Source: Escherichia coli | Lineage (GTDB): Bacteria; Pseudomonadota; Gammaproteobacteria; Enterobacterales; Enterobacteriaceae | DNA length: 64,000 bases | NCBI RefSeq assembly: GCF_046105845.1 | Contig: NZ_CP151004.1 | Strand: one strand, 5' to 3' | Notes under the pieces: model-generated | Databases searched by the model: none | The model's input: the letters and a program-made list of their open reading frames with translations, nothing else | What the model was told of the DNA's origin: nothing | Translations under genes and position numbers: made by a program | Part shown: one piece after another, positions 29,867 to 32,376 of the stretch | Position numbering within the stretch: the first letter of the stretch is position 1 | Layout: every line of letters starts with the position of its first letter

Positions 29867-30894
<1,028 letters not shown>

Positions 30895-31215
30895 GGATAT
30901 TTATCAGGATTTATCGGCTTCAAATCCCCGGATATGTTAAATCTTACCTCACCAGTGATGGGCACTGGCGGGAGGAGGATGTCAATCTGATAAACACAGA
31001 GGTGACTATGGATTACACAAATCTACCAAAACAAACTTTTGCTGATTTAATCGCACTCAGGCAAGCAGTCGTAGCTCTAATCAACTTGTTGCCGGAGAAG
31101 GAAAAGGAATTAGTTAAAGCGCTTCTTAACAGAACTGCCGCCGATTTTTCATCATATCCACTGACAGATGACCTTGCGGACCTTCCTGAATTAATTGCAG
31201 CGTCCGCCATTAAGC

Positions 31216-31767
31216 TTACTGAAGAGATTTACCCTCCTCAAAAATCTTCACAAAATTCCTGCGAGTAACTTCAATGCAATAATCGTAAAACGCCGCAAAC
31301 TGCTCATCGCGGCGTTTTTTTTCATCTTCAGAAGGGATCAGCACCGACAATTTTTTATTCAGATCAGCGACGCTGCCCTCCAGTTTTTCAATGGGCGATT
31401 CAATATCATCTTTTTCTGACCGCAATGCCGTCGGTGGCGTCTTCAGAGAACCAGTAATTCTTCCCGGTAGCTTTCCTTTGTAGGTTATCCACACATTCTG
31501 CGCCTCTAAAATTATGGGGCGCTTTTCCGGCGACTGCTCATCCCCTACACATAACCCGGCAGCAACATCCAGGAATACCTGTCTGATTCTCATTCTGGCT
31601 GCTGCCTCATAAAACTCCAGCGCGGCACCTTCAACACGGTCCAGCGAGATGTCCAGGTCAAAAATTTCACCGTCAAAGCGTTTTTTGTCCCGTAAGGCTA
31701 CAGTTACCGCCACTTTATTCTCAAAATTGCGGACTCCTTTCACAACCAGTTCATAGTCTTGTGTCAT
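31216..31767 (-). CDS. YdfR-like protein (DUF1327-type), between holin and lysozyme
   Basis: Position matches Qin essQ-ydfR-rrrQ; family assignment from memory only. Confidence 0.5.
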   Translation of the reverse strand: MTQDYELVVKGVRNFENKVAVTVALRDKKRFDGEIFDLDISLDRVEGAALEFYEAAARMRIRQVFLDVAAGLCVGDEQSPEKRPIILEAQNVWITYKGKLPGRITGSLKTPPTALRSEKDDIESPIEKLEGSVADLNKKLSVLIPSEDEKKRRDEQFAAFYDYCIEVTRRNFVKIFEEGKSLQ

Positions 31768-31771
31768 TGGA

Positions 31772-31987
31772 TTACTCTCTTCTCGCAACCTTACGCCTGT
31801 CTTCTTTAATCTTGAAATAAAGGTTTGTCAGATACGTCAGCAGGCCAAAAACCAGACTACCCAGCACACCGATTGCAGCCCACTGTGACGGAGTTACTTT
31901 ATCGAGTAACTGCAATGCCCAGAAACCAGCATTACCAGCCGATGTGCCATAGGCGATACCTGTTGTTAACTTATCCATTGATTTCAT
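31772..31987 (-). CDS. Holin (EssD/EssQ-like)
   Basis: [66 protein letters not shown]. Confidence 0.85.
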
Positions 31988-32205: not shown

Positions 32206-32376
32206 ATGTCAGAACGTAAAGACTCAAAATCACGCCGTAATTATCTCGTTAAATGTTCCTGCCCAAACTGCACCCAAGAGTCAGAACACAGTTTTTCAAG
32301 AGTACAAAAAGGTGCCCTTTTGATCTGCCCTCATTGCAACAAAGTATTCCAGACAAATCTTAAAGCTGTAGCTTGA
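32206..32376 (+). CDS. Small zinc-ribbon protein (hypothetical)
   Basis: ATG at 32206 after an AGGAAAAG RBS; CSCPNCTQ...CPHCNK, two CxxC pairs. Confidence 0.5.
   Translation: MSERKDSKSRRNYLVKCSCPNCTQESEHSFSRVQKGALLICPHCNKVFQTNLKAVA

What the first reader, a model, noticed from the sequence alone, without database searches (positions are those of the whole stretch)
31002..31268. Possible plus-strand small gene in the gap between lysozyme and the YdfR-like gene
An 88-aa ORF runs opposite to the lysis genes in an otherwise ~320-bp intergenic gap. I see no motif or clear RBS, so it may be spurious, but the gap is unusually large for a lysis cassette.
Basis: inference. Interest (0 to 1): 0.2.

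Follow-up and report, generated by a model that had tools for sequence, protein, structure and literature searches.

The report
Real small antisense prophage gene
The small plus-strand ORF between the prophage lysozyme and the YdfR-like gene is a real, conserved but uncharacterised phage accessory gene, already catalogued as a hypothetical protein, that runs against the lysis genes and ends in a conserved hairpin inside the neighbouring gene.

Summary
The ORF exists as described (31002-31268, +). Length alone is not beyond chance (P about 0.15), but conservation is decisive.

- **Already catalogued:** RefSeq annotates it (WP_001306174.1, hypothetical protein), and it matches PHROG phrog_2572 over its full length.
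- **Conserved frame:** Homologues of 38-50% identity and 89-93 aa occur in other E. coli and Salmonella lambdoid prophages. dN/dS is about 0.3 with dS above 1, and only this frame stays open.
- **Fixed anatomy in about 75 loci:** It runs antisense to the late operon. It converges on, and overlaps by 53-59 nt, a late-strand ORF tail ("B"). It is followed by a conserved hairpin (plus T8 here) inside B.
- **Insertion polymorphism:** K-12 Qin lacks the gene, and ydfR abuts rrrQ there.

The protein is acidic (pI 4.6) and predicted to form three helices. It has no Pfam, NCBIfam, PADLOC, PDB or fold match, so its function is unknown. The best reading is a moron-type accessory gene with its own terminator. 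Its promoter was not identified. Verdict: real and ordinary in kind, with modest interest.

The parts
31008..31268 (+). Gene A: 86-aa CDS including the stop codon, a member of phrog_2572.
   Evidence: PGAP CDS WP_001306174.1; phrog_2572, E 1.2e-53, 1-86/86; dN/dS about 0.3; the only open frame.
30998..31002 (+). Shine-Dalgarno-like AGAGG, 5 nt upstream of ATG 31008.
   Evidence: Sequence. The homologous position in other clades holds TAAGGA.
31287..31322 (+). Hairpin: arms 31287-31296 and 31309-31318, 12-nt loop, T8 run 31315-31322. It is the candidate intrinsic terminator or 3' stabiliser of gene A and lies inside the coding sequence of the convergent late ORF.
   Evidence: -14.6 kcal/mol, z -2.3; it folds in all A-carrying clades but not in the Stx phage without A; the 8-bp core is conserved in 7 lineages, with one compensatory GC to AU change.
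30893..30917 (.). Invariant 25-nt block ATGGATATTTATCAGGATTTATCGG, holding two ATTTATC direct repeats with a 10-bp period, at the left edge of the module. Its role is unresolved: an operator or promoter part for A, or a leader of the lysozyme gene.
   Evidence: invariant across 10 lineages, including Salmonella-type loci with no adjacent lysozyme; also present in H-19B, which lacks A.
30910..30938 (+). Weak candidate promoter for A: -35 TTTATC (30910-30915), 17-nt spacer, -10 TATGTT (30933-30938). This is inferred, not shown.
   Evidence: TATnnT and TTTATC are invariant in alignment A9, but the site scores only 7/12 to consensus. The scans found no promoter here or in homologous loci.
31216..31767 (-). 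Convergent late-strand gene: 183-aa YdfR-like protein from ATG 31767. It has an N-terminal DUF1327 domain and a C-terminal 'B' tail (about 31216-31400). Its last 17 codons overlap gene A, and its KRR...AA motif is encoded by the hairpin arms.
   Evidence: DUF1327, 1.8e-41; phrog_2091, 183/183; tail 65% identical to the N-terminus of an Stx-phage 213-aa protein; a B tail is present next to A in every locus.
30361..30894 (-). rrrQ-type lysozyme (phage 21 R-like). Its start codon abuts the module's left edge.
31772..31987 (-). essQ-type class II holin (S21 family), the first gene of the lysis cassette.

Best explanation
The ORF is a genuine protein-coding accessory gene of lambdoid prophages, here called gene A (86 aa from ATG 31008, PHROG family phrog_2572). 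It is inserted in the lysis cassette in the opposite orientation to the late operon.

**Shown:**
- The frame is under purifying selection across diverged E. coli and Salmonella prophages.
- It has a ribosome-binding site.
- It is absent from the otherwise homologous K-12 Qin cassette, so it is an insertion/replacement polymorphism.
- It is always followed by a conserved hairpin (with T8 in this clade) that sits inside the 3' coding part of the convergent late-strand ORF.

**Inferred:**
- It is a moron-type, separately transcribed unit. Its mRNA would start in the 113-nt spacer next to the lysozyme start and end at the hairpin.
- It would therefore be expressed mainly when Q-dependent late transcription is off, that is, in the lysogen.
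- The product is a small, acidic, soluble three-helix protein that most probably acts by binding another protein of host or phage. Its biochemical function is unknown.
For: - **ORF, SD and hairpin:** read directly from the sequence.
- **Annotation:** PGAP CDS in CFT073 and hundreds of genomes. Full-length phrog_2572 match.
- **Diverged homologues:** an exhaustive HMMER search and a profile search found homologues of 89-93 aa at 38-50% identity.
- **Selection:** dN/dS 0.28-0.38 with dS 1.0-1.5. Only the +1 frame is free of stops. Within the E. coli clade, 13 of 34 polymorphic sites are synonymous against 23% expected (p 0.036).
- **Intactness:** 54 of 57 IMG/VR loci.
- **Constant anatomy:** antisense to late genes and convergent with a B tail in about 75 loci in two different cassette positions.
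- **Insertion polymorphism:** K-12 Qin has ydfR abutting rrrQ with no gap.
- **Composition:** GC is 41% against 48.5% for the window.
- **Hairpin:** it folds in every A-carrying clade and is lost in the Stx phage that lacks A.
- **Active phages:** 2H10, PhiR63_1, PhiR12 and PhiR5 carry it.
- **Protein properties:** pI about 4.6 and charge about -5.5 in all three clades. Three helices predicted.
Against: - No promoter reaching the scan threshold lies upstream in any clade. The candidate scores only 7/12 to consensus.
- The conserved upstream block also occurs in phages without A, such as H-19B, so it may serve the lysozyme gene rather than A.
- No transcript, ribosome-profiling or proteomic evidence was found.
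- Selection within the E. coli clade is only modest.
- A sub-lineage has ATG changed to ACG at the start (7 IMG/VR loci and the P0002 cluster).
- The structure model is of low-to-moderate confidence (pLDDT 68, pTM 0.37).
- The first helix is borderline hydrophobic (Kyte-Doolittle 19-residue window maximum 1.6), so membrane association is not excluded.
- The T-run after the hairpin is strong only in this clade.
Confidence: 0.85

Rival explanations
1. The functional product is the RNA, or also the RNA. The plus-strand transcript is complementary to the last roughly 35 codons of the late-strand YdfR::B gene and to the untranslated stretch before the lysozyme gene. It could act as a cis-antisense RNA on the lysis-cassette mRNA, by RNase III cleavage or transcriptional interference. 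The geometry resembles lambda OOP RNA over the 3' end of cII. The ORF would then be secondary, or the transcript dual-function.
For: The convergent 53-59-nt overlap and the hairpin are conserved in every lineage. The hairpin arms are the only strongly conserved part of B, so the nucleotide-level element is what is constrained there. Antisense control of this kind is established in lambdoid phages (own knowledge: OOP/cII, P22 sar).
Against: dN/dS of about 0.3 along the whole ORF, a conserved start and SD, and conserved length and charge of the protein are not expected for a purely non-coding RNA. No Rfam match. No expression data.
Confidence: 0.15
2. A and the late-strand B tail form a functional protein pair, for example an inhibitor expressed in the lysogen and a late-expressed target. 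That would explain why they always travel together.
For: A co-occurs with B in all loci except one cut by IS3. The A and B clades match each other. B is standalone (73 aa, coupled to Rz) in Salmonella-type phages and fused to DUF1327 or other N-terminal domains elsewhere.
Against: The two genes physically overlap and share the hairpin, so linkage is largely forced. B shows almost no protein-level constraint between clades (pN/pS 0.8-1.0). B-like tails exist without A. An AlphaFold model of A joined to B by a linker was of low confidence (pLDDT 44.5, pTM 0.25). The genes are convergent, not co-transcribed as in toxin-antitoxin pairs.
Confidence: 0.12
3. The ORF is spurious: a chance open frame in the antisense of an untranslated spacer or of a decayed late gene, propagated by annotation pipelines.
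For: ORF length alone is not significant. There is no domain hit, the distribution is narrow, and no strong promoter was found. PGAP treats the neighbouring gene as a pseudogene. The last 11 codons are antisense to sequence homologous to an Stx-phage late gene.
Against: The frame, length, start, SD and charge are conserved at 38-50% identity with dS above 1 and dN/dS of about 0.3. All other frames are closed. Indels seen in variants are in frame.
Confidence: 0.04

Closest known systems
PHROG family phrog_2572 (phage proteins of unknown function); RefSeq WP_001306174.1 'hypothetical protein'
   Same: Full-length HMM match (1-86 of 86, E 1.2e-53). Identical to the protein annotated in CFT073, S88, APEC O1 and others.
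   Different: Nothing differs; this is the same family. The family has no assigned function. The antisense, overlapping anatomy described here is not part of its record.
Lambdoid-phage morons (for example lambda bor and lom, or stx downstream of pR')
   Same: An extra gene present in some but not all related phages, inserted between late genes, with lower GC and its own terminator-like hairpin.
   Different: A promoter has not been demonstrated. The gene sits inside the lysis cassette or just after Rz, reads against the late operon, and its terminator is embedded in a late coding sequence.
Lambda OOP RNA / cII (cis-antisense over the 3' end of a convergent gene)
   Same: Convergent transcription units whose 3' ends overlap by about 55 nt, with a terminator hairpin inside the partner's coding region.
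   Different: OOP is a 77-nt non-coding RNA (own knowledge). Here the transcript carries an 86-codon ORF under purifying selection. No antisense effect has been tested.
Plus-strand gene of Stx2 phage Stx2_12E129 (104 aa, phrog_1853) at the same position
   Same: Same slot (between the endolysin start and the gene after the holin), same orientation, same conserved upstream block, and a good SD.
   Different: No sequence similarity (BLASTP none, hhalign probability 0.1%). It does not overlap the convergent gene, and the hairpin is degraded there.
YdfR (DUF1327) of K-12 Qin, the neighbouring gene family
   Same: The convergent partner gene here starts with a DUF1327 domain 1.8e-41 to Pfam. K-12 YdfR residues 1-72 bind the RNase E catalytic domain (PMC13232886).
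   Different: Gene A is unrelated to YdfR. K-12 has no gene A, and its ydfR is 103 aa and abuts rrrQ.

Membership tests
PHROG phrog_2572 | Significant full-length match to the family HMM | tested here: met
   E 1.2e-53, residues 1-86 on profile 1-86/86. The Salmonella-type homologue P0020 also matches (3.5e-27).
Pfam DUF1823 (PF08853), as annotated for the PhiR12 phage copy | Score at or above the Pfam gathering cut-off (25 bits) | tested here: not met
   13.2-15.3 bits, E 0.02-0.1, partial match only. The GenBank label 'DUF1823 containing protein' is not supported.
Pfam ABATE (PF07336) | Score at or above the gathering cut-off (24.4 bits) | tested here: not met
   14 bits, E 0.07.
Phage moron | Present or absent between otherwise homologous phages (extra DNA between conserved genes) | tested here: met
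   K-12 Qin has ydfR abutting rrrQ. The window has about 640 bp in place of about 140 bp. H-19B also lacks it.
Phage moron | Own transcription terminator | tested here: met
   Met by sequence only: a 10-bp stem plus T8, 19 nt after the stop, with the stem conserved across clades. Termination was not measured.
Phage moron | Own promoter, expressed from the prophage | tested here: inconclusive
   No site reaches the scan threshold in the window or in three homologous loci. There is only a conserved weak TTTATC-17-TATGTT candidate.
Phage moron | Base composition different from the flanking genes | tested here: met
   GC 0.414 against 0.513 for the lysozyme gene and 0.485 for the window.
Type II toxin-antitoxin pair (A with B) | Two adjacent, co-directional, co-transcribed small genes | tested here: not met
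   A and B are convergent and overlap at their 3' ends. No toxin or antitoxin domain was found.
Known anti-phage defence systems (PADLOC-DB) | Match to a defence-protein HMM | tested here: not met
   No hit at E up to 0.1 for A, B or the neighbours.
Cis-antisense regulatory RNA (OOP-like) | Transcript complementary to the 3' part of a convergent target mRNA, ending at a hairpin within it | tested here: met
   Geometry only: 53-nt ORF overlap, and about 107 nt up to the hairpin end.
Cis-antisense regulatory RNA (OOP-like) | Non-coding transcript with a measurable effect on the target | tested here: not met
   The transcript carries an ORF with dN/dS of about 0.3. Any effect on the target cannot be tested with these tools.

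The most novel reading that the evidence does not exclude
Gene A, its embedded hairpin and the late-strand B tail could form one conserved bidirectional control module of the lysis region. In the lysogen, the plus-strand unit would make protein A. Its mRNA, or transcription from the conserved ATTTATC-repeat block next to the lysozyme start, would also antagonise stray late transcripts across the holin-to-lysozyme junction. This would act as a safety catch or timer for lysis, switched off by Q-dependent late transcription. Different phages would plug different cargo genes (phrog_2572, phrog_1853 and others) into the same antisense slot.
Probability: 0.1. Interest if true: 0.55.

Novelty: already known. 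Interest (0 to 1): 0.25.

Why it matters
The outcome removes doubt about one small ORF. It is a real gene carried by about 5% of complete E. coli genomes (including CFT073, S88, APEC O1 and HS) and by inducible phages, and some phage annotations omit or mislabel it (no CDS in 2H10, 'DUF1823' in PhiR12). Lysis cassettes are usually regarded as tightly packed and unidirectional. A conserved gene reading against them, with its terminator embedded in a late coding sequence, marks a recurrent insertion slot upstream of the endolysin gene. If the gene or its transcript affects lysis timing or lysogen fitness, that would be of practical interest for prophage biology in ExPEC and STEC. For now it is an uncharacterised accessory gene.

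Tried and rejected
- **Domain libraries:** Pfam, NCBIfam and PADLOC scans of A, B and the neighbours gave nothing for A. DUF1823 and ABATE were sub-threshold only.
- **Structure of A:** the AlphaFold2 model shows three helices at pLDDT 68. Foldseek against the PDB gave no match below E 6.8. A PDB sequence-profile search gave nothing below E 0.3.
- **A-B interaction:** an A-(GGGGS)6-B fusion model with a paired 8-row alignment gave pLDDT 44.5, so there is no support either way.
- **Link to the Stx cargo gene:** I noticed an 'LLPxExExVKA' resemblance to the Stx-phage 104-aa positional analogue. BLASTP and hhalign rejected it.
- **Distant relatives:** tblastn of A and of P0020 against GenBank phages found only the same 8 E. 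coli phages plus chance Streptomyces hits. In the exhaustive search, the two long repeat proteins (P0022, P0024) and the odd P0023 are not credible relatives.
- **RNA families:** Rfam gave only chance-level hits.
- **Promoters:** sigma-70 scans in four loci found no qualifying promoter. I looked by eye for sigma-54, PhoP, Fur and IHF motifs in the conserved block and found no convincing match. A GATAAAT core recalls the H-NS high-affinity motif, but that is from memory and is a lead only.
- **Hairpin covariation:** one compensatory pair, not statistically distinguishable from shuffles.
- **Literature:** searches for the accessions, phrog id and phage names returned nothing relevant. The Tree et al. 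prophage sRNAs lie near pR', not in this region.

Full report
**1. The observation**

The window region is a Qin-like lambdoid lysis cassette on the minus strand. It holds an S21-type holin (31772-31987), a DUF1327/YdfR-like ORF (31216-31788), an R21-type lysozyme (30361-30894) and an Rz homologue of the DUF2514 family (29867-30364).

The plus-strand ORF 31002-31268 (88 aa, GTG start) exists as stated. The distance between the lysozyme start and the stop of the YdfR-like ORF is 321 nt.

Three points need correcting:
- An AGAGG lies 5 nt before an in-frame ATG at 31008.
- The ORF's last 53 nt overlap the convergent YdfR-like ORF.
- A hairpin followed by eight T lies 19 nt after the stop codon (31287-31322, -14.6 kcal/mol). 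The scan tool missed it because the loop is 12 nt.

ORF length alone proves nothing. 15% of random 420-nt stretches with this composition hold a complete ORF of at least 86 aa.

**2. It is already annotated**

The 451-nt region is 100% identical to CFT073, S88, APEC O1 and many other genomes. PGAP annotates a plus-strand CDS equivalent to 31008-31268 as WP_001306174.1, 'hypothetical protein'.

The ORF DNA occurs in 313 of 5426 complete E. coli genomes, 293 of them at full length, in three allele groups (100%, about 95% and about 94% identity). It is also carried by isolated phages: 2H10, PhiR63_1, and the PhiR12 and PhiR5 series. The 2H10 record does not annotate it. The PhiR12 records call it 'DUF1823 containing', a label resting on a sub-threshold hit (15 bits against a cut-off of 25).

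The protein matches PHROG phrog_2572 (unknown function) over its full length (E 1.2e-53).

**3. Is the frame conserved?**

A word-indexed search found only near-identical E. coli proteins. The exhaustive HMMER search with a profile and a second profile search found diverged full-length relatives of 89-93 aa at 38-50% identity. These are P0020, P0021, P0025, P0027 and P0028, from metagenomes and Salmonella enterica.

| Test | Result |
|---|---|
| Nei-Gojobori, window against the distant clades | dN/dS 0.28-0.38, dS 1.0-1.5 |
| Same alignment read in the other five frames | pN/pS near or above 1, or (in the third-position-coincident antisense frame) 3-6 stop-containing codon columns; only +1 is open in all |
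| E. coli clade, 14 haplotypes | 34 polymorphic sites, 13 synonymous against 23% expected (p 0.036) |
| 57 IMG/VR loci found by tblastn | 54 with an intact frame; exceptions are an IS insertion, a frameshift and a contig end |

Observed indels are in frame. The start region is homologous between clades, with TAAGGA or AGAGG 5-8 nt before ATG or GTG. That places the start at 31008, not 31002. A sub-lineage has ATG changed to ACG, so not every copy need be functional.

I conclude the ORF encodes a protein (confidence about 0.9).

**4. Anatomy of the module**

Compared with K-12 Qin, where ydfR overlaps rrrQ by 4 nt, the window carries about 640 bp (roughly 30910-31555) in place of about 140 bp. 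This is an insertion/replacement polymorphism.

About 75 loci fall into two layouts:
- holin - DUF1327::B - [A, opposite strand] - lysozyme (E. coli clades)
- endolysin - Rz - B (standalone 73 aa) - [A, opposite strand] - small terminase (Salmonella type)

In every case A converges on, and overlaps by 53 or 59 nt, a late-strand ORF whose C-terminal about 60 codons I call B. In the window, B is the tail of a 183-aa protein starting at ATG 31767. That protein matches phrog_2091 end to end, although PGAP labels it an incomplete YdfR pseudogene. The tail is 65% identical to the N-terminus of a 213-aa Stx-phage protein.

B itself shows little protein-level constraint between clades (pN/pS 0.8-1.0). 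Its only well-conserved residues, KRR...AA, are encoded by the two arms of the hairpin. The 8-bp hairpin core is kept in seven lineages. It carries one compensatory GC to AU change that alters both encoded amino acids, and it has a mismatch in the Stx phage that has no gene A. The hairpin folds in all A-carrying clades (z -1.7 to -3.6) but not in that Stx phage (z +0.2). So the hairpin appears to belong to A, as terminator or 3' stabiliser, and B has to encode around it. Covariation alone is not statistically decisive.

**5. Upstream region**

A 25-nt block (30893-30917, two ATTTATC repeats one helical turn apart) is invariant in ten lineages. These include Salmonella-type loci where no lysozyme gene is adjacent. 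TATnnT at 30933-30938 is also invariant.

That gives a weak candidate promoter: TTTATC, 17 nt, TATGTT (7/12 to consensus). No site passes the scan threshold in four loci. The block also occurs upstream of the lysozyme gene in phages lacking A, such as H-19B and the Stx phages. Whether it serves A or the lysozyme gene is unresolved.

In Stx2_12E129 an unrelated plus-strand gene (104 aa, phrog_1853) occupies A's slot. The space upstream of the endolysin gene therefore looks like a recurrent slot for antisense cargo.

**6. The protein**

The protein is 9.5 kDa, with pI 4.6 and net charge about -5.5. These values are conserved in all clades. AlphaFold2 predicts three helices (8-27, 30-48, 56-74) at pLDDT 68 and pTM 0.37.

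It has no Pfam, NCBIfam, PADLOC, PDB-sequence or Foldseek relatives. Helix 1 is borderline hydrophobic (Kyte-Doolittle 19-residue window maximum 1.6) but carries conserved Asp, Arg and Gln residues. I read it as a bundle helix, not a membrane span (inference). An A-linker-B co-model was uninformative.

**7. Explanation and rivals**

Best supported: a moron-type accessory gene with its own SD and terminator, read against the late operon. It is probably expressed when late transcription is off, and it encodes a small acidic helical protein that acts by binding a partner. The coding status is shown. The independent transcription, the timing of expression and the mode of action are inferred.

Rivals:
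- An OOP-like cis-antisense role for the transcript. The geometry fits, but the coding constraint argues against a purely RNA function.
- An A-B protein pair. Co-occurrence is complete, but it is forced by the physical overlap, and B is poorly conserved.
- A spurious ORF. This is largely refuted.

**8. Context from the literature**

Nothing was found on this protein. The neighbouring family has one recent lead: K-12 YdfR residues 1-72 bind the RNase E catalytic domain, and YdfR may bind RNA (PMC13232886). Prophage anti-sRNAs described by Tree et al. lie near pR', not here (PMC4104026).

**9. Verdict**

The gene is real, but it is already catalogued as a hypothetical protein and PHROG family, and it belongs to a familiar kind: a small accessory gene in a prophage late region. 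The conserved antisense/overlap/hairpin architecture and the shared slot upstream of the endolysin gene are the only mildly unusual aspects. Interest 0.25.

Noticed in passing
window 31216-31767 (-): PGAP marks the YdfR-like gene as an incomplete pseudogene (31432-31767 only). However, the 183-aa ORF from ATG 31767 matches phrog_2091 end to end (183/183, E 5e-112). The long DUF1327::B form therefore looks like an intact family, not a truncation.
   Followed up: partly
window 30893-30917: An invariant 25-nt block with two ATTTATC direct repeats (10-bp period) is conserved across ten lineages. It occurs both with and without an adjacent lysozyme gene, and both with and without gene A. Its GATAAAT cores recall the H-NS high-affinity motif (from memory). 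Its function is unresolved.
   Followed up: partly
L006 1218-1532 (+); L023 1577-2278 (+): Stx phages carry other plus-strand ORFs in the same slot upstream of the endolysin gene. One is an annotated 104-aa protein (phrog_1853). The other is an unannotated 233-aa ORF that overlaps the tail of a 263-aa DUF1327 ORF and has no Pfam or PHROG hit.
   Followed up: partly
L022 1555-1902 (-) (phage H-19B, AF034975): A 115-aa DUF1327 ORF (E 4.7e-46) lies between S and R. It is not annotated in the H-19B record.
   Followed up: yes
window 30979-30990 (+): A tiny upstream ORF, ATG TCA ATC TGA, is preceded by GGAGGAGG in the putative 5' leader of gene A. Other clades have ATG TGA or a 5-codon mini-ORF at the aligned place. 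The leader folds well (z -3.2), with the SD partly paired.
   Followed up: no
L035, L036, L038-L041, L043 (IMG/VR) and protein cluster P0002: A sub-lineage of otherwise identical copies has the gene A start codon changed from ATG to ACG. That leaves only the poorly placed GTG 31002 as a possible start.
   Followed up: partly
window 29917-30213 (-): A 98-aa ORF embedded out of frame in the Rz homologue includes a lipobox-like LTSC motif. It looks like the Rz1/RzoQ o-spanin. No such CDS is listed in the CFT073 annotation of this region, while K-12 annotates rzoQ.
   Followed up: no
window 32206-32376 (+): This is the YnfU-like putative zinc-binding small protein (CxxC...CxxC). It is another plus-strand small gene, located just beyond the holin gene, and it is annotated in CFT073 and K-12.
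   Followed up: no
L010 1393-2593; L068: Gene A is interrupted by IS3-family insertions in some genomes (strain 2013C-3277 and one IMG/VR contig).
   Followed up: no
protein P0023 (95 aa): This database protein resembles the C-terminal half of A, but with systematic substitutions and a hydrophobic, garbled N-terminus. It may come from chemically converted or error-rich reads. I did not treat it as a homologue.
   Followed up: no
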